Source: Escherichia coli (GTDB taxonomy: Bacteria; Pseudomonadota; Gammaproteobacteria; Enterobacterales; Enterobacteriaceae). Taken from it: a stretch of DNA of 64,000 nucleotides. Positions 48,445 to 60,583 of the stretch are shown here, piece after piece. Below the pieces are notes generated by a model, which worked only from the letters and a program-made list of their open reading frames with translations, ran no database searches and had not been told where the DNA came from. The stretch's first letter is position 1. Every line of letters starts with the position of its first letter. A program made the position numbers and the translations under genes. The stretch lies in the NCBI RefSeq assembly GCF_002854065.1, contig NZ_CP024147.1. One strand, written 5' to 3'.

Positions 48445-50634
48445 TTAATCAGCTAATGGCTGCGGGCGACCAATCAAATACCCTTGCAGATATTGCACCC
48501 CGAGCTTATGCAATAGCGCCTGCTGCTGTTGCGTCTCAACAAACTCCGCAACCACACTCAATGACTTCGCTTTCGCCAGATCGGTAATTGATCTCACAAT
48601 CATCGCATCCAGCGTATTCGTGACGATATCTTTCACAAAGACGCCATCAATTTTGATGATATCAGCCTGCAAACGCTTTAACCGTTCGTAGTTGGCATAT
48701 CCGGTGCCAAAGTCATCAATCGCAATCCGGAAACCAAACTTATGCAGCTGCTCGATGTTGTACATGCTGCTTTCTGCGTTCGAAAACGCCTGCTCCTCGG
48801 TGATCTCAAGAATGACCGCCTGCGGGGAGATGTGATAACGCTTAAATAGACGAATAATCCGCCCGGCAATATTCTTTTGCAGCAGCGTGAGCGGCATTAA
48901 ATTAACTGAAAAGCGCGGGCCTTTTTTGTCGCAAGGGTGTGTTGCCAGCCACTTCAACAAGGATTCCAGCACTTGCAAATCAAAACGCGCGCTAAGGTTA
49001 AACTGAGCAATAAGGGGCAGAAACTTATCCGGGGTCATAATGCCGCCGTCATATTTCAGTCGCGCGAGGATCTCATCATAACCTTCACCCTCTTTGTTGC
49101 GAATTGGCTGGGCGTAGAGCAGCAAATCCCCCTGATCTAACGCCGTGCGAATGGTATTCAGCAATAGCACTTGTTTAGTGGTCTGCCCGGAAACCATCTC
49201 CTCTCGGCTATCCAGCGCCAGCACATGATGATGTGCGCAGGATTGCTCCGCCAGCCAGCTTAACTGCCCCAACAAGGGTTGCAGGGTTTCCTGATTTCCA
49301 TCAAAACGCCCCCAGGCAGCACCATAGCCCATATCCAGCCCGGTATTGTTCCAGTGAATTTGCCGACTATTCAGGATGTTAACCATATGCTGGAGTCGCC
49401 CTTCCGTTTCCGGCCCGCTCAGCACTAACAGCAGTTCACTACCCGGCAATTGATATAACTTTTCGTTTTCCTGCATCAACGGCAGCAGCGTACGGTAGAT
49501 TGAGCGGATACAGTGAACGCGCATCATTAAGCCGTAATGACGACTCATAAACTCAAGATTATCAATGCGCAGGCAGCAAAAACTCTTGCCCGCCTCTTGC
49601 TCCGGCGCTTGTTCCAACGCACGAAAATTGGGTAGGAGCGTTAACGGATCGGTCAGCGCCTGCAAATGCCAGCGGCGATTAAGCCATTCACTGCGATGAT
49701 AAATGCGCACCATATAGAGCAGGCAAACGCTAAAGGAAATCAGCACCGCGAGAATAAATGCCAGCGAATATTCGGTTTCCACCCCTTGCAAAAAGTTCTG
49801 GTTGTAATTCAGCAGGCAAAGCGTTGAAACAGCCCAAGTGAGATTTAAAAACGGATAGCGAAGCTTACCGACCCCGAGGGTAAAGATGATGAAGAAAACG
49901 GGTACCAGGTAACCGGCAATAAAGTCGTTTTCATAAGGTGTGCACAACAGAAGTAGCAGCACGCTTAACGCTGCCAGCCAGCTTAAGGTAAATGCGCGTT
50001 TCTCTTTGCCCAACGACGGAGCGATATCCCTGCGCCACAATATCTGCGCAAAGTGGGGACTTACAATCATGCGAGTGAGATAGTAGAAAAGCATGTTGTA
50101 AATCAGAACAGCGGTGAAAAGGCTTAGCAAATCAACGACCGTGAAAATGGCATCCGCATCGCCGAAAAAGGTGGATATCTTTAGCGGGAAATCAAAGAAG
50201 CTCCCCACAAGATACATGCTGCATTTGATGCCGATCGGCGTCACCAAACCAAGCCAGAACAGACGTTGCCAGACATATCGGCTGGTCAATCCATAACGCC
50301 AACGCGTCCCCAGCTGCCAGCGTAATATTGCGCAGGCACACAACACGACAAACGTCTGGCTGCCGAGCATGACCGCAGTCTGTAAAAAAGAGAGATGAAA
50401 GTTCCACAGATTGGTGCAAAACATCCCGCATAAAACGGGAACGACACCGCGCCAGCCAAAGATAAACAAGATTGACAGCATTACGCACAGTGGCATCCAC
50501 GCCAGAAAGATATAACTGGAATGGATAATGGCAAGTGGCGAAATAAAACGGGATAGCTGAATAAGTACCACGGTGAGCGTAAACGCTAGTGTGAATATCT
50601 TGATATTTTTTATCAGGTTATGCTCCACAAACAT
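48445..50634 (-). CDS. yfeA: Membrane-anchored GGDEF/EAL-domain protein (c-di-GMP phosphodiesterase-like)
   Basis: 729 aa from ATG at 50634 (MFVEHNLIKN...) with an N-terminal MASE-type membrane domain and C-terminal EAL motifs (..EITE.., ..DDFGTGYANY..). Confidence 0.85.
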   Translation of the reverse strand: MFVEHNLIKNIKIFTLAFTLTVVLIQLSRFISPLAIIHSSYIFLAWMPLCVMLSILFIFGWRGVVPVLCGMFCTNLWNFHLSFLQTAVMLGSQTFVVLCACAILRWQLGTRWRYGLTSRYVWQRLFWLGLVTPIGIKCSMYLVGSFFDFPLKISTFFGDADAIFTVVDLLSLFTAVLIYNMLFYYLTRMIVSPHFAQILWRRDIAPSLGKEKRAFTLSWLAALSVLLLLLCTPYENDFIAGYLVPVFFIIFTLGVGKLRYPFLNLTWAVSTLCLLNYNQNFLQGVETEYSLAFILAVLISFSVCLLYMVRIYHRSEWLNRRWHLQALTDPLTLLPNFRALEQAPEQEAGKSFCCLRIDNLEFMSRHYGLMMRVHCIRSIYRTLLPLMQENEKLYQLPGSELLLVLSGPETEGRLQHMVNILNSRQIHWNNTGLDMGYGAAWGRFDGNQETLQPLLGQLSWLAEQSCAHHHVLALDSREEMVSGQTTKQVLLLNTIRTALDQGDLLLYAQPIRNKEGEGYDEILARLKYDGGIMTPDKFLPLIAQFNLSARFDLQVLESLLKWLATHPCDKKGPRFSVNLMPLTLLQKNIAGRIIRLFKRYHISPQAVILEITEEQAFSNAESSMYNIEQLHKFGFRIAIDDFGTGYANYERLKRLQADIIKIDGVFVKDIVTNTLDAMIVRSITDLAKAKSLSVVAEFVETQQQQALLHKLGVQYLQGYLIGRPQPLAD

Positions 50635-50841
50635 GAGTACACTACTCTCACTGATCGGGGTTTTCAGGCACACAAATAATAAGTTTATTCGCATCGCGAA
50701 GCAAACAGGGGCCAGCCTGTTGCCGATTTTTCATCCAATGATGCTTTCACCAGGCGGCGCTAACCCGGACGTAGACTGTATTACAAAAGCGGCAAAAAGC
50801 AGAGACAAAAAACCCCCGCTTTGCAGCGAGGGTTGGAAATT

Positions 50842-50917
<76 letters not shown>

Positions 50918-50956
50918 ACGATGCGTTTACGTACCAAATTTGCTGGGTGCAAAATT

Positions 50957-51032
<76 letters not shown>

Positions 51033-51252
51033 GTCACGTAAAGCTTGTCGAGTTGACGGGCGGCATCATATGAATTCCGCCCGAATGTGTCAACGGCAAA
51101 TTGCAGCGTGTAGTTTCAATCGCTGAAAAATCAGGCAAATGAACAATTTTGGAAAACCGCTCGCATTCAGTAGTTATTCATGTCACGGTTTCCTGTAAAG
51201 TGGTGTTATAAAATGAACTACTAATAGACCCACATACATTCAGGGAATTGTT

Positions 51253-51612
51253 ATGTTCAAGGAGAGGATGACGCCAGATGAACTTGCCAGACTGACCGGC
51301 TATAGCCGCCAGACCATTAATAAATGGGTACGCAAGGAAGGCTGGACGACGTCACCAAAACCAGGCGTCCAGGGTGGCAAAGCCCGACTGGTTCACGTCA
51401 ATGAACAGGTTCGTGAATATATTCGTAATGCTGAACGTCCAGAAGGTCAGGGAGAAGCGCCTGCCCTTTCTGGTGATGCGCCGCTTGAAGTATTGCTGGT
51501 GACACTGGTGAAAGAGATGACGCCAGTTGAACAAAAACAGTTTACATCCTTGCTTCTGCGGGAAGGGATTATCGGATTGTTACAACGCTTAGGGATTCGC
51601 GATAGCAAATAA
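51253..51612 (+). CDS. yfeC: Small putative DNA-binding protein (YfeC family)
   Basis: 119 aa ORF with HTH-like N-terminus (..ELARLTGYSRQTINKWVRKEGW..). Paralogous to the adjacent yfeD. True start may be a few codons downstream. Confidence 0.75.
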   Translation: MFKERMTPDELARLTGYSRQTINKWVRKEGWTTSPKPGVQGGKARLVHVNEQVREYIRNAERPEGQGEAPALSGDAPLEVLLVTLVKEMTPVEQKQFTSLLLREGIIGLLQRLGIRDSK

Positions 51613-51613
51613 T

Positions 51614-52006
51614 ATGAAAAGATTACGCAATAAAATGACCACCGAAGAACTGGCTGAATGCCTCGGTGTGGCTAAACAAACTGTTAACCGTTGGATCAGA
51701 GAAAAAGGCTGGAAAACGGAAAAATTTCCCGGCGTGAAAGGCGGTCGTGCCAGACTTATTCTGGTCGATACGCAAGTTTGCGAGTTTATTCAGAACACGC
51801 CAGCCTTCCATAACACACCGATGCTTCTGGAAGCCGAAGAACCCCTTGCCGAATACGCACCGGGGATTCGCACTCCTGCTTATCGGCAAATCATAAGCGC
51901 AATAGACAACATGACTCACAGTGAGCAGGAAAAAGTTGCGCAATTTTTGTCACGCGAAGGAATTCGTAATTTCCTTGCTCGTCTCGACATAGATGAATCA
52001 GCTTGA
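51614..52006 (+). CDS. yfeD: Small putative DNA-binding protein (YfeD family)
   Basis: 130 aa (..ELAECLGVAKQTVNRWIREKGW..), paralog of yfeC. Confidence 0.75.
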   Translation: MKRLRNKMTTEELAECLGVAKQTVNRWIREKGWKTEKFPGVKGGRARLILVDTQVCEFIQNTPAFHNTPMLLEAEEPLAEYAPGIRTPAYRQIISAIDNMTHSEQEKVAQFLSREGIRNFLARLDIDESA

Positions 52007-52045
52007 CATCCTCCACGCCCTGAATGACGAGGATCCCTGCTACGT

Positions 52046-53254
52046 TCAGGCTGTCGCCTGAATCATTTCGGTGGGTTCCTGCTTCAACGAGTGGCCTGAC
52101 TGCACCATCTCTCCACAGGCAAGAACGGCGTGCCCCGCCGCTAAAATGTTACGAGCGCCGTTTACATCGGCGTTCGCTGTATATCCACATACCTGGCATC
52201 TGAATTTACTTTGTGACAGGCGATTTTCTTTCGCTGTATGACCACAGCACGCGCAACGCTGGCTTGTGTACGCTGGCGGAACAGCAAGCACCTGACCGCC
52301 TCGCCAGAGCTGCTTGTACTCAAGCTGGCGGCGCATTTCATACCAGCCCTGATCCAGTATCGAACGGTTTAAACCTGATTTTGCCCGGACATTGCGCCCC
52401 GGCTGGCTGACCGTACCCGCTGCTGACTTTGACATGTTGCTGACCTTCAAATCCTCAATGACTATCATTGCGTGGTTTTTGCTGACGGTCGTTGTGACTT
52501 TGTGAAGGTAGTCTCTGCGGATATTTGCGGTACAGGAATGCAGTCGCTGTATTTTGCGTTTCTGCTTCTGCCAGTTATTGCTGAATTTGACCTTGCGGCT
52601 TAACTGTCGCTGAAGTCTCGCCAGCTTCTTCTGGTTTTTCTGAAAACTGTTTACAGGCTCAAAGACTGTGCCATCTGACAGCGTGGCGAGTTTAGCCACG
52701 CCAGCATCCAGTCCGACCATTGATGCTGAAGGGTGAACCGGAGTTGATACTTCACTTTCTGTCTGAATACTGATGTACCACTTACCGCAGGACTGGCTGA
52801 CAGTGACATTTTTCACAACACCCGTGACCTGACGGCTGTTCCGGTAGCGCATCCAGCCAAGTTTCGGCAGAAAAATACGGCTGTTTTCCTGATCGAGCTT
52901 AACGCCCTGCGGGTAGCGGAATGCATCATTCTGTCCCCGCTTTTTGAATCGGGGAAAAGCAGCCCGCTTCCGGAAGAAGTTTTTGTAAGCCCGCTCAAGG
53001 TCTTTCAGTGACTGTTGCAATGGCTGTGAGGGCGAATCTTTAAGCCATTGCGTTTCAGTGGCATTTTTCCACTCAACCAGCCAGGAAGCCATTTTCCCGT
53101 AAGGGATGTATTTATTACCGGCCTCATGATTCTCATTCTGACGTGCCAGAGCACGATTGAAAACGAAACGACATGCGCCTGCGAAGCGCCTCATTTCACG
53201 CTCCTGTTGACCAGCGGGTCTTAACTGGAATTTAAATGCCTGTAGTCGTTTCAC
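52046..53254 (-). CDS. tnpB: TnpB (OrfB) RuvC-like nuclease of IS200/IS605 family, putative RNA-guided
   Basis: 402 aa with RuvC-I (..[10 protein letters not shown]..), RuvC-II (..[10 protein letters not shown]..), a zinc finger (CACCGH...CQVCGY) and RuvC-III (..[10 protein letters not shown]..). Confidence 0.85.
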
Positions 53255-53261
53255 AGGCCAA

Positions 53262-53804
53262 ATGATACTTTGGTCTATGAATAAAGAAACCGATATCCGA
53301 CGGGGAAGGCATTGTGTTTTCCTGATGCATGTTCATCTGGTCTTTGTCACCAGATACCGACGTCAGATTTTTGACTATGACGCGACAGAAAAACTACGCA
53401 CTTACTTTTCAAATGTATGTGCTGATTTTGAAGCTGAACTGGTTGAAATGGATGGCGAACCAGATCACGTCCATTTGTTAATTAACTATCCTCCCAAACT
53501 GGCGATATCCAGTCTGGTAAACAGCCTCAAAGGCGTATCGGGTAGGTTACTGCGACGAGATCGACCAGATATTGCAGTCAGGTATTACTACAAAGGCGTT
53601 TTGTGGAGTCCTGGCTATTTTGCCAGTAGCTGCGGAGGTGCGCCAATATCCGTCATCCGCCAATACATTGAACAACAGCAAACACCTGGTCAGGTGGAAA
53701 ACCGCGCCTTATATCCCCGCCCTGAAGGACGGGGTTTTACGGCGCACCGGATAAATAAAAAACGGCAGGGGTATCTCTCCTGCCGTTTATCTTTTATGCG
53801 CTAA
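53262..53804 (+). CDS. tnpA: TnpA (Y1 HUH transposase) of IS200/IS605 family, with C-terminal tail reading into flanking DNA
   Basis: IS200-like core (..HCVFLMHVHLVFVTRYRRQIF.., HUH motif DHVHLLINY, Tyr region ..RQYIEQQ..). Likely start is MNKE at 53277. The ORF continues to 53804, across the presumed gltX terminator. Confidence 0.75.
   Translation: MILWSMNKETDIRRGRHCVFLMHVHLVFVTRYRRQIFDYDATEKLRTYFSNVCADFEAELVEMDGEPDHVHLLINYPPKLAISSLVNSLKGVSGRLLRRDRPDIAVRYYYKGVLWSPGYFASSCGGAPISVIRQYIEQQQTPGQVENRALYPRPEGRGFTAHRINKKRQGYLSCRLSFMR
53755..53787 (-). terminator. Candidate gltX rho-independent terminator
   Basis: On the minus strand a hairpin (ACGGCAGG ... CCTGCCGT) is followed by a U-run (A-run 53755..53762 on plus), immediately after the gltX stop. 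Confidence 0.5.
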
Positions 53805-55220
53805 TTACTGCTGATTTTCGCGTTCCGCAATAAAAGCCAGCGCTTTGTTGATACGCTCGATACTGCGGGTCTTACCGATTGCGTGAACGGTAACATCCAG
53901 TGCTGGAGACTGCCCCGCACCGGTTACGGCGACACGCAGCGGCATACCAACTTTACCCATACCCACTTCCAGCTCATCCGCCGTCGCCTGAATAGCGTGA
54001 TGAACGTTTTCAGCGGTCCAGTCAGTAATCGCGGCCAGTTTGTCACGAACCACTTCCAGCGGCTGACGCGCTACCGGACGCAGATGTTTTTTCGCCGCAT
54101 CGGCATCGAACTCAGCAAAATCTTCGTAGAAATAACGGCAGCTCTGTGCCATCTCTTTCAGCGTCTTGCAGCGTTCGCCCAGCAGTTTCACCAGATCAGC
54201 CAGCTGCGGGCCGTTACGGGTATCGATATTTTCCTGCTCAATGTGCCACTGTAAGTGAGTAGCAACATACTCCGGCGGCAGCGCGTTAATGTAGTGATGG
54301 TTCAGCCACAGCAGCTTGTCGGTGTTGAACGCACTGGCAGATTTGCTGACGGCATTCAAAGTGAAGTATTTGATCATCTCTTCACGAGTGAAGATTTCCT
54401 GATCGCCGTGGGACCAGCCCAGACGCACCAGATAGTTCAGCAGTGCTTCTGGCAAATAACCGTCATCACGATACTGCATTACGCTGACTGCCCCGTGACG
54501 TTTGGACAGTTTTTTGCCGTCATCGCCGTTGATCATAGAAACGTGCGCGTAAACCGGTACCGGCGCTTTCAGGGCTTTAAGAATATTGATCTGGCGTGGC
54601 GTGTTGTTGATATGGTCTTCGCCACGGATAACGTGGGTGATTTCCATATCCCAGTCATCGACAACCACACAGAAGTTATAGGTTGGGGAACCATCGGTAC
54701 GGCGGATAATAAGATCGTCCAGTTCCTGGTTGCTGAACTCGATCGGACCACGGATCTGATCGTCAAAAACAACAGAACCTTCCTGCGGGTTAGCAAAACG
54801 TACGACACACGGCTCATCATCAGCGTGATGCTCATGACTGTGGCGGCAGCGACCGTCATAACGCGGCTTCTCACCTTTCGCCATTTGCTCTTCGCGCAGC
54901 GCTTCCAGGCGCTCTTTAGAGCAATAGCATTTATAAGCAGTGCCCTCTTCCAGCATCTGATCGATCACCGCGTTGTAGCGATCAAAACGTTTGGTCTGGA
55001 AGTACGGACCTTCATCCCACTCCAGGCTCAGCCAGTTCATGCCATCCATAATGGCTTCGATAGCTTCCGGCGTGGAACGCTCAAGATCGGTGTCTTCAAT
55101 ACGCAGCACGAACTCACCGCCGTGATTACGTGCAAAAAGCCAGGAGTAAAGAGCAGTACGCGCGCCGCCAACGTGCAGATAGCCTGTTGGGCTTGGCGCG
55201 AAGCGAGTTTTGATTTTCAT
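53805..55220 (-). CDS. gltX: Glutamyl-tRNA synthetase
   Basis: 471 aa class I aaRS with HIGH-type (..[12 protein letters not shown]..) and KMSKS-type (..KLSKR..) motifs. Confidence 0.95.
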
Positions 55221-55478
55221 GAAATGGCCTTACGTTTAGAAAGATGCCGACAACCGGCAAATCCTGGAAAAATTGAGTGGGCGATATTCTATCACTCCCG
55301 CCTGATTCCTCAATGTAGTTCGGGTTGCAACCTTACGCATTATTGTTTTCGTTGACAAATTGCGCAACACGGTCTGTTTTGCGATCATCTTGCTTAAATT
55401 TACGACGAACGAACAATTTCTTTAGAAAATGCGTTGACTCATTTTGAACTCTCCCTATAATGCGACTCCACACAGCGG

Positions 55479-55554
55479 GGGTGATTAGCTCAGCTGGGAG
55501 AGCACCTCCCTTACAAGGAGGGGGTCGGCGGTTCGATCCCGTCATCACCCACCA
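55479..55554 (+). tRNA. valU: tRNA-Val (anticodon UAC)
   Basis: GGGTGATTAGCTCAGCTGGGAGAGCACCTCCCTTACAAGGAGGGGGTCGGCGGTTCGATCCCGTCATCACCCACCA (76 nt). Confidence 0.9.
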
Positions 55555-55598
55555 ACTGCTTTATGTAGTCTCCGCCGTGTAGCAAGAAATTGAGAAGT

Positions 55599-55674
55599 GG
55601 GTGATTAGCTCAGCTGGGAGAGCACCTCCCTTACAAGGAGGGGGTCGGCGGTTCGATCCCGTCATCACCCACCA
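55599..55674 (+). tRNA. valX: tRNA-Val (anticodon UAC), copy 2
   Basis: Identical 76-nt sequence. Confidence 0.9.
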
Positions 55675-55720
55675 CTTTCTCACCAGCTAAATTTCTTGTA
55701 AAAATGTGAAGTACCGAAGT

Positions 55721-55796
55721 GGGTGATTAGCTCAGCTGGGAGAGCACCTCCCTTACAAGGAGGGGGTCGGCGGTTCGATCCCGTCATCACCCACCA
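55721..55796 (+). tRNA. valY: tRNA-Val (anticodon UAC), copy 3
   Basis: Identical 76-nt sequence. Confidence 0.9.
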
Positions 55797-55800
55797 CTTC

Positions 55801-55876
55801 GGGTCGTTAGCTCAGTTGGTAGAGCAGTTGACTTTTAATCAATTGGTCGCAGGTTCGAATCCTGCACGACCCACCA
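55801..55876 (+). tRNA. lysV: tRNA-Lys (anticodon UUU)
   Basis: GGGTCGTTAGCTCAGTTGGTAGAGCAGTTGACTTTTAATCAATTGGTCGCAGGTTCGAATCCTGCACGACCCACCA (76 nt), 4 bp after valY. Confidence 0.9.
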
Positions 55877-55879
55877 ATG

Positions 55880-55908
55880 TAAAAAAGCGCCCTAAAGGCG
55901 CTTTTTTG
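55880..55908 (+). terminator. Rho-independent terminator of the valU-valX-valY-lysV tRNA operon
   Basis: AAAAAAGCGCC-CTAAA-GGCGCTTTTTT. Confidence 0.8.
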
Positions 55909-55940
55909 CTATCTGCGATTTGTATGATTGATTTTTCTTC

Positions 55941-55967
55941 TCAAGTTCCTTGTTCTTCTACCGATAT
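55941..55967 (+). promoter_or_regulatory. Candidate sigma-28 (FliA) promoter upstream of the FlxA-like gene
   Basis: TCAAGTTC-N11-ACCGATAT compared with the consensus TAAAGTTT-N11-GCCGATAA (6/8 and 6/8 matches, correct spacing), ending 29 bp before the ATG. Confidence 0.4.
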
Positions 55968-55995
55968 TACCTCGTACAGTGACGAGGACTGAACA

Positions 55996-56337
55996 ATGGC
56001 CACTATCTCTTCAACTTCAATTCCTTCCATACAAACACAGAGTAGTAACAGGGCATCACAAGGTAGCGATGTTGCTTCACAAATCGCGCGGATAAGTCAG
56101 CAAATCATCAAACTCACTCAACAAATTAAAGAGATTGTAGATACTAGCGGCAGTGCTGAAGACAAGCAAAAACAGGCCGAATTGATTCAACAGCAAATCA
56201 CCCTACTGGAAACACAACTGGCGCAGTTGCAGAGACAGCAGGCAGAAAAGGCGCAGGAGAAAGAGCAGCGTTTGTCTCTGAATGTATCCCTTCTAAATCC
56301 TGTTGAAAATACGACTCATATCGATATCTATATCTGA
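55996..56337 (+). CDS. FlxA-like coiled-coil protein (113 aa)
   Basis: [15 protein letters not shown]...[20 protein letters not shown]...[31 protein letters not shown]...HIDIYI. Same architecture and C-terminal ...D(I/V)YI ending as the prophage-encoded FliA-dependent FlxA. Confidence 0.7.
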
Positions 56338-57254
56338 TACAACGGATCCCCTTCCCGACCAGCCATTAGCGCATTGCCCTGGTCTCGTACCACGTCCCAT
56401 AACGCTTCAGCGGCGGTGGAAAGTGAACGGTTCTTCCTGCGCACCAGCATCAACTGGCGTTCAACAACCGGCGTAATGCGCTTTACCACCAGCGGGCTAC
56501 CTTCAGGCAATGGTAGCGCCAGTGCGGGAAGAATACTGATGCCGATGCCTGCGGCTACCATCGGGAACAGCGTCGCCGGATGTCCAATCTCCTGCACAAT
56601 ATTCGCCTGAATACCATTGCGCGCCAGCGCTGCGTCAATCAGCGGTCGGCTGCCTGACGCGTAATCCTGCAACACCAATTTCGCTCCCTGTAATGCCTGC
56701 CAGGGTACATAATCTTCCACGGTCAAAGCGCTATCGCGATGGCAAAGCAGAAAGAAAGGCTCGGAAAGAATCGCTTCACATTGCAGATCGCCCACTGGGC
56801 CTGGATCGATGACGATGCCAAAGTCGACATCTCCCTGGCGAATACTTTCCATCACCCACTGCTGCGGACGATCGTGCAGGACAAACTGAATATCTGGATA
56901 GCGGCGATGGCTTTCAGCAATGCATTGCGGAATAAGATGCGCGGAAATGGTCTGGCTGGCAGCGACCCGAACTTTTCCGCTCAGTTGTTGCCCCATACGC
57001 CCGGTATCGCGCAACGTGCTGTTAAGTTCATCCAGCAGTCGCTCAAGACGCAAAGCCAACTGCTGCCCTGCATCTGTAAGCACCACTTCACGCGTGGTTC
57101 TGTCCAGCAGGCGAACACCAGTATGATTTTCCAGCTCCTTCACACTGTGACTTACTGCCGACTGGCTCAGGCCGATACGCTCTCCTGCACGACTAAAACT
57201 TTTCTCCTGCGCTACTGTGACGAAAACCTTTAATTGTTTTAAAGAATAATTCAT
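56328..57254 (-). CDS. yfeR: LysR-family transcriptional regulator
   Basis: 308 aa with N-terminal LysR HTH ([42 protein letters not shown]...). Its 3' end overlaps the FlxA-like gene by 10 bp, convergently. Confidence 0.85.
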
Positions 57255-57343
57255 CTGTTTTCTTCATGAATGGATGCAATAAATCAATTTTATTTCTCAA
57301 ACTGGAAGAAGCACAATAGAACCATCGATCATCTGGAGTCTTT

Positions 57344-58342
57344 ATGAAACTTTTTCGTATCCTCGATCCTTTCACCTTAACCCTGATCACGGTGGTGTTG
57401 CTGGCCTCTTTCTTTCCGGCCAGAGGCGATTTCGTCCCCTTCTTTGAAAATCTGACCACCGCAGCTATTGCCCTGCTGTTCTTTATGCACGGCGCGAAGT
57501 TGTCGCGTGAGGCGATTATTGCTGGCGGTGGTCACTGGCGACTGCATTTGTGGGTAATGTGCAGCACCTTCGTGCTGTTTCCGATTCTGGGTGTACTGTT
57601 TGCCTGGTGGAAACCGGTAAATGTCGACCCGATGCTCTACTCCGGTTTTCTCTACTTGTGCATTCTCCCGGCTACCGTGCAGTCTGCAATCGCCTTCACG
57701 TCAATGGCGGGCGGTAACGTCGCGGCGGCGGTTTGTTCTGCGTCAGCATCCAGCCTGCTGGGGATTTTCCTTTCACCATTGCTGGTTGGTCTGGTGATGA
57801 ATGTTCACGGTGCAGGGGGCAGCCTTGAGCAAGTCGGTAAAATTATGCTGCAACTGCTGCTGCCGTTTGTGTTGGGGCATCTTTCCCGGCCGTGGATTGG
57901 TGACTGGGTGTCGCGCAATAAAAAATGGATTGCGAAAACTGACCAGACGTCCATTCTGTTAGTGGTTTATACAGCGTTCAGCGAAGCCGTCGTTAATGGT
58001 ATCTGGCATAAAGTTGGCTGGGGATCATTGCTGTTTATCGTGGTGGTCAGCTGCGTTCTTCTGGCTATCGTGATTGTAGTTAACGTCTTTATGGCACGCC
58101 GACTGGGCTTCAATAAAGCAGATGAAATTACTATCGTCTTTTGTGGTTCGAAAAAGAGTCTGGCAAATGGCATCCCGATGGCAAACATTCTGTTCCCCAC
58201 ATCGGTGATCGGTATGATGGTGCTGCCCCTGATGATTTTCCATCAGATCCAATTGATGGTCTGTGCGGTGCTGGCGCGTCGATACAAACGCCAGACCGAA
58301 CAGTTACAGGCGCAGCAGGAAAGCAGCACCGATAAAGCTTAA
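57344..58342 (+). CDS. yfeH: Bile acid:sodium symporter (BASS) family membrane protein
   Basis: 332 aa polytopic membrane protein. Confidence 0.85.
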   Translation: MKLFRILDPFTLTLITVVLLASFFPARGDFVPFFENLTTAAIALLFFMHGAKLSREAIIAGGGHWRLHLWVMCSTFVLFPILGVLFAWWKPVNVDPMLYSGFLYLCILPATVQSAIAFTSMAGGNVAAAVCSASASSLLGIFLSPLLVGLVMNVHGAGGSLEQVGKIMLQLLLPFVLGHLSRPWIGDWVSRNKKWIAKTDQTSILLVVYTAFSEAVVNGIWHKVGWGSLLFIVVVSCVLLAIVIVVNVFMARRLGFNKADEITIVFCGSKKSLANGIPMANILFPTSVIGMMVLPLMIFHQIQLMVCAVLARRYKRQTEQLQAQQESSTDKA

Positions 58343-58557
58343 AGCGGACGCTTCAGGGGCTGGACCAGTTGCGTCAGCCCCTCGGTTTTAATCAGCAGCG
58401 TGATTTGCATTAGCTCACCGAGCTTCCCTGCCGGGAACTCATCTTTGCGGGCAAACCACAGCAGATACTCCTCCGGCAGGTCGATTAAGCGACGCCCTTT
58501 GTATTTGCCAAACGGCATTATCGTATTGGCTATTTCAATCAGCTGCTCTTTTTCCAT
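58339..58557 (-). CDS. ypeB: Small DUF3820 protein
   Basis: 72 aa from ATG at 58557 (MEKEQLIEIANTIMPFGKYKGRRLIDLPEEYLLWF...), immediately downstream of ligA. The ORF-track start at 58650 is an extension inside ligA. Confidence 0.75.
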   Translation of the reverse strand: MEKEQLIEIANTIMPFGKYKGRRLIDLPEEYLLWFARKDEFPAGKLGELMQITLLIKTEGLTQLVQPLKRPL

Positions 58558-58558
58558 C

Positions 58559-60583
<2,025 letters not shown>

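What the first reader, a model, noticed from the sequence alone, without database searches (positions are those of the whole stretch)
55479..55876. Three identical tandem tRNA-Val genes as recombination substrate next to a variable locus
Three perfect 76-nt copies with 44-bp and 46-bp spacers, followed by lysV, sit immediately upstream of the locus that differs from K-12. tRNA clusters are classic integration and deletion hotspots, which may explain the local gene-content difference.
Basis: partly seen in the sequence, partly recalled or inferred. Interest (0 to 1): 0.1.

Follow-up and report, generated by a model that had tools for sequence, protein, structure and literature searches.

The report
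Known valU tRNA operon beside swappable locus
This is the well-studied E. coli tRNA operon valU-valX-valY-lysV; its three identical valine genes do gain and lose copies between strains, but that does not explain why the neighbouring genes differ from K-12.

Summary
There are three identical 76-nt tRNA-Val(UAC) genes with 44- and 46-bp spacers, then tRNA-Lys(UUU) and a strong terminator. This is the characterised valU-valX-valY-lysV operon of E. coli.

The locus downstream is variable. Of 5,426 complete E. coli genomes, 1,316 carry the window's 404-bp cassette, a FlxA-family gene. Another 4,099 carry the 4.4-kb xapR-xapB-xapA-yfeN cassette seen in K-12. No genome showed strong matches to both.

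The Val genes do act as recombination substrates, but only locally. Junction-specific searches found arrays of 1, 2, 3 and 4 Val genes. About 8-9% of genomes depart from the canonical array. K-12 laboratory lineages carry 3, 2 or 1 copies.

- The cassette breakpoints lie 46 bp after lysV and at the yfeR stop codon, not in the Val genes.
- Val copy number varies independently of cassette type.
- There is no integrase and no tRNA-end repeat flanking the cassette.
- Both cassettes sit at the same site in Pseudocitrobacter, with lower synonymous divergence than the flanking genes.

This pattern fits allelic replacement by homologous recombination in conserved flanks. Overall the biology is ordinary and largely known, so interest is low.

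The parts
53805..55220 (-). gltX (glutamate-tRNA ligase), the conserved left flank, transcribed divergently from the tRNA operon
   Evidence: 471-aa ORF; annotated gltX in the 100%-identical strain 100416 and in K-12
55434..55461 (+). sigma-70 promoter of the valU operon (TTGACT, 16 nt, TATAAT). The transcription start is inferred at about 55470.
   Evidence: 11 of 12 consensus matches. PMC4176162 places the start 9 nt upstream of mature valU. The position in the window is inferred from that.
55479..55554 (+). valU, tRNA-Val(UAC), copy 1
55555..55598 (+). spacer 1 (44 nt). It marks which recombination event made a variant array.
55599..55674 (+). valX, tRNA-Val(UAC), copy 2, identical to copy 1
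55675..55720 (+). spacer 2 (46 nt)
55721..55796 (+). valY, tRNA-Val(UAC), copy 3, identical to copies 1 and 2
55801..55876 (+). lysV, tRNA-Lys(UUU), 4 nt (CTTC) after valY
   Evidence: the CUUC spacer is described in PMC4176162
55879..55909 (+). Rho-independent terminator of the operon (13-bp stem including A6/U6 tracts, 5-nt loop)
   Evidence: Free energy -19.1 kcal/mol, z = -6.5 against shuffles. PMC4176162 shows this terminator is removed first by RNase P.
55910..55922 (.). Last bases shared with K-12 (..CTATCTGCGATTTG). The left breakpoint of the variable cassette is at 55922/55923.
55923..56326 (+). Window-type cassette (404 bp, 42.6% GC) that replaces the 4.4-kb xapR-DUF1427-xapB-xapA-yfeN cassette of K-12
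55941..55967 (+). sigma-28 (FliA)-like promoter TCAAGTTC-N11-ACCGATAT upstream of the FlxA-like gene (a lead, not shown to function)
   Evidence: Both motif halves are invariant while the spacer varies across E. coli and Pseudocitrobacter. K-12 flxA has TAAAGATT-N11-GCCGATAG. The motif alone is not above chance in the window: 3 found against about 2.3 that I calculated as expected.
55996..56337 (+). FlxA-like family gene (113 aa). Its stop codon overlaps the 3' end of yfeR by 10 nt.
   Evidence: Pfam FlxA PF14282, 52.2 bits against a cut-off of 26.3. 43% identity to K-12 FlxA over 74 aa. The ORF is intact in Pseudocitrobacter at 81-88% amino-acid identity.
56328..57254 (-). yfeR (LysR-family regulator), the conserved right flank. 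The right breakpoint of the cassette is at its stop codon.

Best explanation
The feature is the housekeeping valU-valX-valY-lysV tRNA operon of E. coli. One sigma-70 promoter drives a transcript of about 440 nt that ends at a strong intrinsic terminator. In K-12, RNase P processes this transcript from the 3' end towards the 5' end.

The three Val genes are identical direct repeats 120-122 bp apart. They therefore undergo unequal homologous recombination or replication slippage. This adds or removes whole Val-plus-spacer units, giving arrays of 1-4 genes in the species. Occasionally the array also exchanges sequence with the paralogous lysT tRNA operon.

A separate process explains the neighbouring difference from K-12. 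The lysV-yfeR interval exists as two alternative cassettes. One is a FlxA-family gene, probably sigma-28 controlled. The other is the xanthosine-utilisation cluster xapRBA plus yfeN. I infer that these are swapped as alleles by homologous recombination in the conserved flanks: the tRNA operon and gltX on the left, yfeR and yfeH on the right. Such swaps appear to include transfer between enterobacterial genera.

Shown here: the anatomy, the copy-number variants and their junctions, the breakpoints, the mutual exclusivity of the cassettes, and their presence in other genera. Inferred: the recombination mechanism, the anchoring role of the tRNA operon, and sigma-28 control.
For: Anatomy and identity:
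- Searches give the genes, promoter and terminator.
- The operon is 99.2% identical to K-12 over 55001-55919.
- Its processing is described in PMC4176162.

Copy-number variation, counted with junction-specific queries at strict E-values in 5,426 complete genomes:
- The spacer1-Val-CTTC-Lys junction (valX x valY deletion) occurs in 213 genomes. An identity-band count gave 252.
- The leader-Val-spacer2 or leader-Val-CTTC-Lys junction occurs in 159 genomes.
- The spacer1-Val-spacer1 or spacer2-Val-spacer2 junction occurs in 139 genomes.

Loci read directly (sequences):
- 4 copies: ECONIH5, ETEC-2264 and strain 138.
- 3 copies with spacer 2 twice: type strain ATCC 11775.
- 2 copies keeping spacer 1: 2013C-4974, an O111:H8 strain and HH97. 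The hit tables add O157:H7, O121 and O103 strains.
- 2 copies keeping spacer 2: the BW25113 derivative AML001_ev02. BW25113 and J53 assemblies give the same 2-copy match in the hit tables.
- 1 copy: TG1 and AVS0713.
- 118UI has Val-Lys-51nt-Val-Lys. Its 51-nt spacer is the single-copy Lys-Val spacer that 5,338 genomes carry at a different chromosomal position, which I take to be the lysT operon.

Cassette alleles:
- 1,316 genomes carry the FlxA-like cassette and 4,099 carry the xap cassette, 5,415 of 5,426 in total.
- Val copy number is independent of cassette type.
- Pseudocitrobacter faecalis and a Pseudocitrobacter MAG carry the FlxA-like cassette. P. vendiensis carries xap plus yfeN. Citrobacter sp. 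MGH106 carries xapRBA. All are at the same site.
- Synonymous divergence (dS) between E. coli and Pseudocitrobacter is 0.24 for xapB, 0.58 for yfeN, 0.64 for xapA, 0.47-0.73 for yfeR and 0.11-0.58 for flxA-like. For the flanks it is 1.2-1.7 (yfeH), 1.0-1.3 (ligA) and about 2 or more (cysZ).
- The tRNA operon, spacers included, is 96-99% identical between genera, while the intergenic DNA just upstream is 53% identical.
Against: - The recombination mechanism (RecA-dependent exchange or slippage) was not tested.
- Some variant arrays could be assembly errors. The TG1 one-copy state rests on a single assembly.
- RefSeq complete genomes are clonally redundant, with many BW25113 and J53 derivatives, so the percentages are not population frequencies.
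- Only eight outgroup loci were recovered, one of them a MAG contig that could be chimeric.
- gltX (0.8) and cysK (0.8) also have lowish dS, probably from codon bias, and xapR dS is 1.25. The transfer signal is therefore mosaic rather than clean.
- High conservation of the tRNA operon spacers could reflect processing constraints rather than transfer.
- The sigma-28 motif is not statistically significant on its own.
Confidence: 0.85

Rival explanations
1. The tandem tRNA genes are an integration or deletion hotspot. The difference from K-12 arose by site-specific integration of an island at the tRNA, or by deletion driven by the Val repeats.
For: tRNA genes are classic island integration sites (general knowledge). 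In K-12 the last 16-18 nt of lysV plus the terminator are duplicated 156 bp downstream in the RtT-like unit, which looks superficially like an att duplication. The FlxA-like cassette has lower GC than the window (42.6% against 48.3%).
Against: No integrase or other mobility gene lies in or beside either cassette. The lysV 3'-end repeat lies only on the lysV side, never at the yfeR end. RtT units number 0, 1 or 2 with either cassette. Neither breakpoint is in a Val gene. A deletion cannot create the FlxA-like gene, which xap-type genomes lack. Val copy number is uncoupled from cassette type.
Confidence: 0.05
2. This is a differential-loss model. An ancestor carried both the flxA-like gene and the xap/yfeN genes between lysV and yfeR, and lineages then lost one or the other.
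For: Strain HH97 has a 1.2-kb scrambled interval with both a xapB fragment (84% identity) and degenerate flxA-like pieces. Both cassettes are old enough to be found in several genera.
Against: No intact locus with both cassettes was seen in 5,426 E. coli genomes or 8 outgroup loci. xap-type loci show no flxA remnant and flxA-type loci show no xap remnant at blastn/tblastn sensitivity. Independent losses would have to produce the same breakpoints each time. Lower dS in the cassettes than in the flanks argues for exchange rather than vertical descent with loss.
Confidence: 0.1

Closest known systems
valU-valX-valY-lysV operon of E. coli K-12 (Agrawal, Mohanty and Kushner 2014, PMC4176162)
   Same: Same genes, order, spacer lengths (44, 46 and 4 nt), promoter, terminator and position next to gltX. 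The sequences are 99.2% identical.
   Different: There is one SNP in each spacer relative to K-12. The window lacks the 156-bp RtT-like unit that follows lysV in K-12.
Tandem tRNA gene arrays with variable copy number, such as the glyV/W/X/Y array present in three or four copies in E. coli (PMC4539685), and tRNA gene duplication in Pseudomonas fluorescens (PMC7661048, PMC10954465)
   Same: Identical direct repeats gain and lose whole units. Copy number differs between strains of one species.
   Different: Here the unit is only 120-122 bp and the range is 1-4 copies. The P. fluorescens events are large, kilobase-to-megabase duplications.
tRNA-associated genomic islands and integrative elements
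   Same: A variable gene cassette sits directly 3' of a tRNA gene.
   Different: There is no integrase, no flanking repeat of the tRNA 3' end and no mobility genes. The two states are alternative cassettes with identical breakpoints, not presence or absence of an element.
FlxA of the Qin prophage (K-12), a sigma-28-regulated protein of unknown function
   Same: Same Pfam family, 43% identity over 74 aa, similar size, and a TAAAG-type/CCGATA motif pair with 11-nt spacing upstream.
   Different: This gene is chromosomal and not in a prophage. tblastn found no match in 50,697 phage records. Regulation by FliA was not tested.
xapABR xanthosine catabolism cluster (Seeger et al. 1995, cited in PMC9602453)
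   Same: It occupies the same lysV-yfeR interval in K-12-type genomes. Pangenome work reports it at partial prevalence that differs between phylogroups.
   Different: It is absent from this window. Within E. coli it exists as two haplotypes about 7% apart.

Membership tests
valU tRNA operon (valU-valX-valY-lysV) | Three tRNA-Val(UAC) genes followed by tRNA-Lys(UUU), all on one strand | tested here: met
   ARAGORN and Rfam
valU tRNA operon (valU-valX-valY-lysV) | Synteny: divergent from gltX, with yfeR-yfeH-ligA downstream | tested here: met
valU tRNA operon (valU-valX-valY-lysV) | A single promoter upstream of valU and a Rho-independent terminator after lysV | tested here: met
   Promoter with 11 of 12 consensus matches. 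Hairpin of -19.1 kcal/mol. Both match the published operon. Transcription itself was not measured here.
valU tRNA operon (valU-valX-valY-lysV) | RNase P-dependent processing from the 3' end towards the 5' end | not testable with these tools
   Known for K-12 (PMC4176162). Assumed here because the sequences are near-identical.
Tandem-repeat copy-number variation by unequal homologous recombination | Identical direct repeats long enough for recombination | tested here: met
   Three identical 76-nt copies
Tandem-repeat copy-number variation by unequal homologous recombination | Variants differ by whole units, with junctions inside the repeat and the predicted spacer combinations | tested here: met
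   Arrays of 1, 2 (either spacer), 3 (spacer 2 twice) and 4 copies (spacer 1 or spacer 2 doubled) (sequences)
Tandem-repeat copy-number variation by unequal homologous recombination | Recurrence in independent lineages | tested here: met
   Within K-12, DH10B has 3 copies, BW25113 and J53 have 2, and TG1 has 1. Within O157:H7, different strains have 2, 3 or 4. Variants occur with both cassette types.
Tandem-repeat copy-number variation by unequal homologous recombination | Dependence on RecA or on replication slippage | not testable with these tools
   Requires genetics
tRNA-targeting genomic island / integrative element | Integrase gene next to the tRNA | tested here: not met
   None in the ORF list or in annotations of either allele
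tRNA-targeting genomic island / integrative element | Direct repeat of the tRNA 3' end at the distal boundary | tested here: not met
   The lysV 3'-end motif is found only at lysV and in the adjacent RtT unit
tRNA-targeting genomic island / integrative element | Atypical base composition | tested here: inconclusive
   The FlxA-like cassette is 42.6% GC, the xap cassette 47.4% and the window 48.3%
FlxA family (Pfam PF14282), for the adjacent gene | Score above the Pfam gathering threshold | tested here: met
   52.2 bits against 26.3
FlxA family (Pfam PF14282), for the adjacent gene | Sigma-28-dependent expression, as for K-12 flxA | tested here: inconclusive
   The motif is conserved across genera but is not significant on its own

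The most novel reading that the evidence does not exclude
The lysV-yfeR interval may be a long-lived two-state locus: a sigma-28-type FlxA-like gene versus xanthosine utilisation plus a Tsx/OmpK-like channel. It would be shared across Escherichia, Pseudocitrobacter and Citrobacter, and repeatedly swapped between strains and genera by homologous recombination. The left anchor would be the near-invariant tRNA operon (about 480 bp at 96-99% identity between genera). On this reading, conserved tRNA operons act as portable homology arms for inter-genus allele replacement without any integrase.
Probability: 0.3. Interest if true: 0.35.

Novelty: already known. Interest (0 to 1): 0.12.

Why it matters
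It matters little for new biology. The operon is characterised, variable copy number in tandem tRNA arrays is a known phenomenon, and pangenome work already reports xapABR at partial, phylogroup-dependent prevalence.

Two practical points follow:
- Common laboratory K-12 lineages differ in Val(UAC) gene number at this locus. DH10B has 3, BW25113 and J53 have 2, and one TG1 assembly has 1. This is relevant to work on tRNA dosage and to reference-based variant calling.
- "Next to a tRNA" does not by itself imply site-specific integration. Here the evidence favours plain homologous replacement of alternative cassettes.

Tried and rejected
- Counting copy-number variants by query coverage failed. 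The search tool joins overlapping pieces, so 3-copy genomes also reach 100% coverage. I replaced this with junction-specific synthetic queries at strict E-value limits.
- I first read AML001_ev02 as a laboratory-evolved deletion. Its parent and the BW25113 lineage already have 2 copies, so the event predates that experiment.
- The Stbl4 locus looked like a rearrangement through the tRNA repeats. It is a truncated IS1 fused into the middle of valY, so it is IS-mediated and not Val-Val recombination.
- An Rfam search of 50500-57500 at E<=1 found no RtT unit in the window. The unit is present in K-12 and other strains only.
- tblastn of the FlxA-like protein against the phage collection found nothing. 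A prophage origin is therefore not supported.
- The scan of species-representative genomes with YfeR returned only 8 loci, too few to infer the ancestral state.
- The sigma-28 motif search in the window gave 3 hits, against about 2.3 that I calculated as expected. I keep the motif only as a lead, supported by its conservation.
- Literature searches for a published note on the BW25113 valX/valY deletion found nothing in the held library.

Full report
**Observation**

ARAGORN finds tRNA-Val(UAC) at 55479-55554, 55599-55674 and 55721-55796, and tRNA-Lys(UUU) at 55801-55876, all on the + strand. Rfam agrees, with 65.9 bits for each Val gene and 79.2 bits for Lys. The three Val genes are identical base for base. 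The spacers are 44 nt, 46 nt and CTTC.

A near-consensus sigma-70 promoter (TTGACT, 16 nt, TATAAT, 55434-55461) lies upstream. A 13-bp hairpin with a U-tract (55879-55909, -19.1 kcal/mol, z = -6.5) lies downstream.

**Identity**

The window is E. coli. The stretch 55300-59300 is 100% identical to strain 100416. The stretch 55001-55919 is 99.2% identical to K-12 DH10B. Synteny is the same as at about 54 min on the K-12 map: alaX/alaW, yfeC, yfeD, gltX, the tRNA operon, then yfeR, yfeH, ypeB, ligA, zipA, cysZ and cysK.

This is the valU-valX-valY-lysV operon. PMC4176162 reports the following for K-12:
- The transcript is about 438 nt and starts 9 nt upstream of valU.
- RNase P first removes the terminator and then releases the pre-tRNAs from the 3' end towards the 5' end.
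- All five type-I Val tRNA genes of K-12 are identical.

**What differs from K-12**

Homology to K-12 ends at window 55922, which is 46 bp after lysV and just past the terminator. It resumes at 56327, the yfeR stop codon.
- The window has 404 bp here, encoding a 113-aa FlxA-family protein. The Pfam score is 52.2 bits against a cut-off of 26.3. The protein is 43% identical to K-12 FlxA.
- K-12 has a 156-bp RtT-like unit, which repeats the last 16-18 nt of lysV plus the terminator. It is followed by xapR, a DUF1427 gene, xapB, xapA and yfeN, 4.4 kb in all.

Among 5,426 complete E. coli genomes, 1,316 carry the FlxA-like segment and 4,099 carry the xap cassette. Together that is 5,415 genomes, so the two states are effectively mutually exclusive alleles. 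Three further points:
- The xap cassette itself has two haplotypes. 2,435 genomes are at least 99% identical to K-12 and 1,642 are 90-95% identical, while the flanks of the latter are about 98% identical.
- One strain, HH97, has a scrambled 1.2-kb interval containing a xapB fragment and degenerate flxA pieces.
- RtT units number 0 (window), 1 (K-12) or 2 (MLI023K2, which has the FlxA-like cassette).

Pangenome work already reports xapABR at partial prevalence that differs between phylogroups (PMC9602453).

**Are the Val genes recombination substrates?**

Yes, locally. A spread sample showed some 2-copy arrays. I then built synthetic junction queries and set E-value limits that only a contiguous junction can pass.

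| Junction searched | What it indicates | Genomes | Call |
|---|---|---|---|
| spacer1-Val-CTTC-Lys | valX x valY deletion | 213 (252 by identity band) | 60 (31) |
| leader-Val-spacer2 or leader-Val-CTTC-Lys | first unit lost, or a single copy | 159 | 37 |
| spacer1-Val-spacer1 or spacer2-Val-spacer2 | a duplicated unit | 139 | 38 |

Reading individual loci confirmed the structures below (sequences).

| Val copies | Structure | Examples read directly |
|---|---|---|
| 4 | spacers 1, 2, 2 | ECONIH5 |
| 4 | spacers 1, 1, 2 | ETEC-2264, strain 138 |
| 3 | spacers 2, 2 | type strain ATCC 11775 |
| 2 | spacer 1 kept | 2013C-4974, an O111:H8 strain, HH97 |
| 2 | spacer 2 kept | AML001_ev02, a BW25113 derivative |
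| 1 | none | TG1, AVS0713 |

The hit tables extend the 2-copy, spacer-1 form to O157:H7, O121 and O103 strains. They extend the spacer-2 form to BW25113 and J53 assemblies.

Strain 118UI has Val-Lys-51nt-Val-Lys. Its 51-nt spacer is the single-copy Lys-Val spacer that 5,338 genomes carry at a different chromosomal position, which I take to be the lysT operon. Only about 11 genomes have a second copy. This indicates ectopic exchange between the two paralogous tRNA operons.

Allowing for overlap between the junction sets, roughly 8-9% of complete genomes depart from the canonical array. There are two caveats: RefSeq is clonally redundant, and single assemblies such as TG1 could be wrong.

**Does this explain the neighbouring gene-content difference?**

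The evidence says no.
- Neither cassette breakpoint lies in a Val gene.
- FlxA-type loci occur with 2, 3 and 4 Val genes and with the Val-Lys-Val-Lys form. xap-type loci occur with 1, 2 and 3.
- Neither allele has an integrase or other mobility gene.
- The lysV 3'-end motif recurs only in the adjacent RtT unit, never at the yfeR end.
- A deletion cannot create the FlxA-like gene.

**How the cassettes probably move (inference)**

A scan of species-representative genomes with YfeR returned eight loci. The same dimorphism appears at the same site:
- Pseudocitrobacter faecalis and a Pseudocitrobacter MAG carry the FlxA-like gene.
- P. vendiensis carries xapR-DUF1427-xapB-xapA-yfeN.
- Citrobacter sp. 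MGH106 carries xapRBA without yfeN.

Synonymous divergence (dS) between E. coli and Pseudocitrobacter is lower in the cassettes and yfeR than in most flanking genes.

| Gene | dS |
|---|---|
| xapB | 0.24 |
| yfeN | 0.58 |
| xapA | 0.64 |
| yfeR | 0.47-0.73 |
| flxA-like | 0.11-0.58 |
| yfeH (flank) | 1.2-1.7 |
| ligA (flank) | 1.0-1.3 |
| cysZ (flank) | about 2 or more |

xapR (1.25) and the codon-biased gltX and cysK (about 0.8) blur this picture.

The tRNA operon, spacers included, is 96-99% identical between E. coli and P. faecalis. The intergenic DNA just upstream is only 53% identical.

The simplest reading is allelic replacement by homologous recombination in conserved flanks, sometimes between genera. 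The tRNA operon would supply an unusually good left homology arm.

**The FlxA-like gene**

The ORF is intact at 81-88% amino-acid identity in Pseudocitrobacter. Its dN is well below its dS.

Upstream lies TCAAGTTC-N11-(A/G)CCGATAT. Both halves are invariant across genera while the spacer varies. This mirrors TAAAGATT-N11-GCCGATAG upstream of K-12 flxA. The motif alone is not above chance in the window, so sigma-28 control remains a lead. No phage homologue was found.

**Verdict**

The feature is already known and of low interest.

Noticed in passing
window 52046-53804: An IS200/IS605-family element lies between yfeD and gltX. It has a 402-aa TnpB/InsQ gene (52046-53254, - strand) and a tnpA gene that is annotated as partial in the identical strain 100416. 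K-12 lacks it at this site. There is a weak, sub-threshold Rfam RAGATH-18 hit at 52076-52119 (29.5 bits against a gathering score of 44.9).
   Followed up: no
window 51614-52006 (yfeD): yfeD is far more diverged from K-12 than its neighbours. Its dS is 0.43, against 0.02-0.05 for yfeC, gltX, yfeR, yfeH, ligA, cysZ and cysK. This suggests an imported recombination tract next to the IS element.
   Followed up: no
L001 3431-3556 (K-12 DH10B); L003 5737-6018 (MLI023K2): 156-bp RtT-like units follow lysV. Each ends with a copy of the last 16-18 nt of lysV plus the terminator. They occur 0, 1 or 2 times depending on the strain, with either cassette type. The window has none.
   Followed up: partly
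L021 780-1142 (strain 118UI): The valU locus here reads Val-Lys-51nt-Val-Lys. The 51-nt spacer is otherwise single-copy at a different chromosomal position in 5,338 genomes, which I take to be the lysT tRNA operon. About 11 genomes have a second copy, which implies ectopic exchange between the two tRNA operons.
   Followed up: partly
L005 4923-5519 (Pseudocitrobacter MAG contig): Here the FlxA-like gene is followed by a Lys-Val-Lys-Lys-Lys array rather than Val-Val-Val-Lys. This could be a real exchange with a lysT-type operon or a chimeric metagenome assembly through the identical tRNA and terminator sequences.
   Followed up: no
L013 8301-9520 (strain HH97): This is a third, scrambled allele of the lysV-yfeR interval. 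It has an RtT unit, a xapB fragment at 84% identity annotated as a hypothetical protein, and duplicated degenerate flxA-like pieces. Only about two genomes fall in this identity band.
   Followed up: partly
L016 6300-6800 (strain Stbl4): In this laboratory strain a truncated IS1 is fused into the middle of valY. This places lysV-xapR next to rpsT, with valU and valX missing from the junction. It is an IS1-mediated rearrangement ending inside the tRNA array.
   Followed up: yes
L010 10924-17843 (record titled E. coli SCPM-O-B-8794; species-representative genome): This locus has an enlarged xap-type cassette. It contains yfeN, an extra XapB paralogue (61% identity) and about 1.2 kb of further sequence, then xapA, xapB and xapR that are only 79-89% identical to K-12 proteins. 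The flanks are 98-99% identical at the protein level.
   Followed up: no
window 50842-50917 and 50957-51032: A second tandem tRNA pair, alaX/alaW (tRNA-Ala GGC), lies on the - strand with a 39-bp spacer, 4.4 kb upstream of the Val array. I did not examine it for copy-number variation.
   Followed up: no
E. coli genomes record NZ_CP026085.1 (labelled DH5alpha): A 4.83-Mb genome labelled DH5alpha carries the FlxA-like cassette, whereas the K-12 derivatives examined here carry xap. The record is probably mislabelled or is not a K-12 strain.
   Followed up: no
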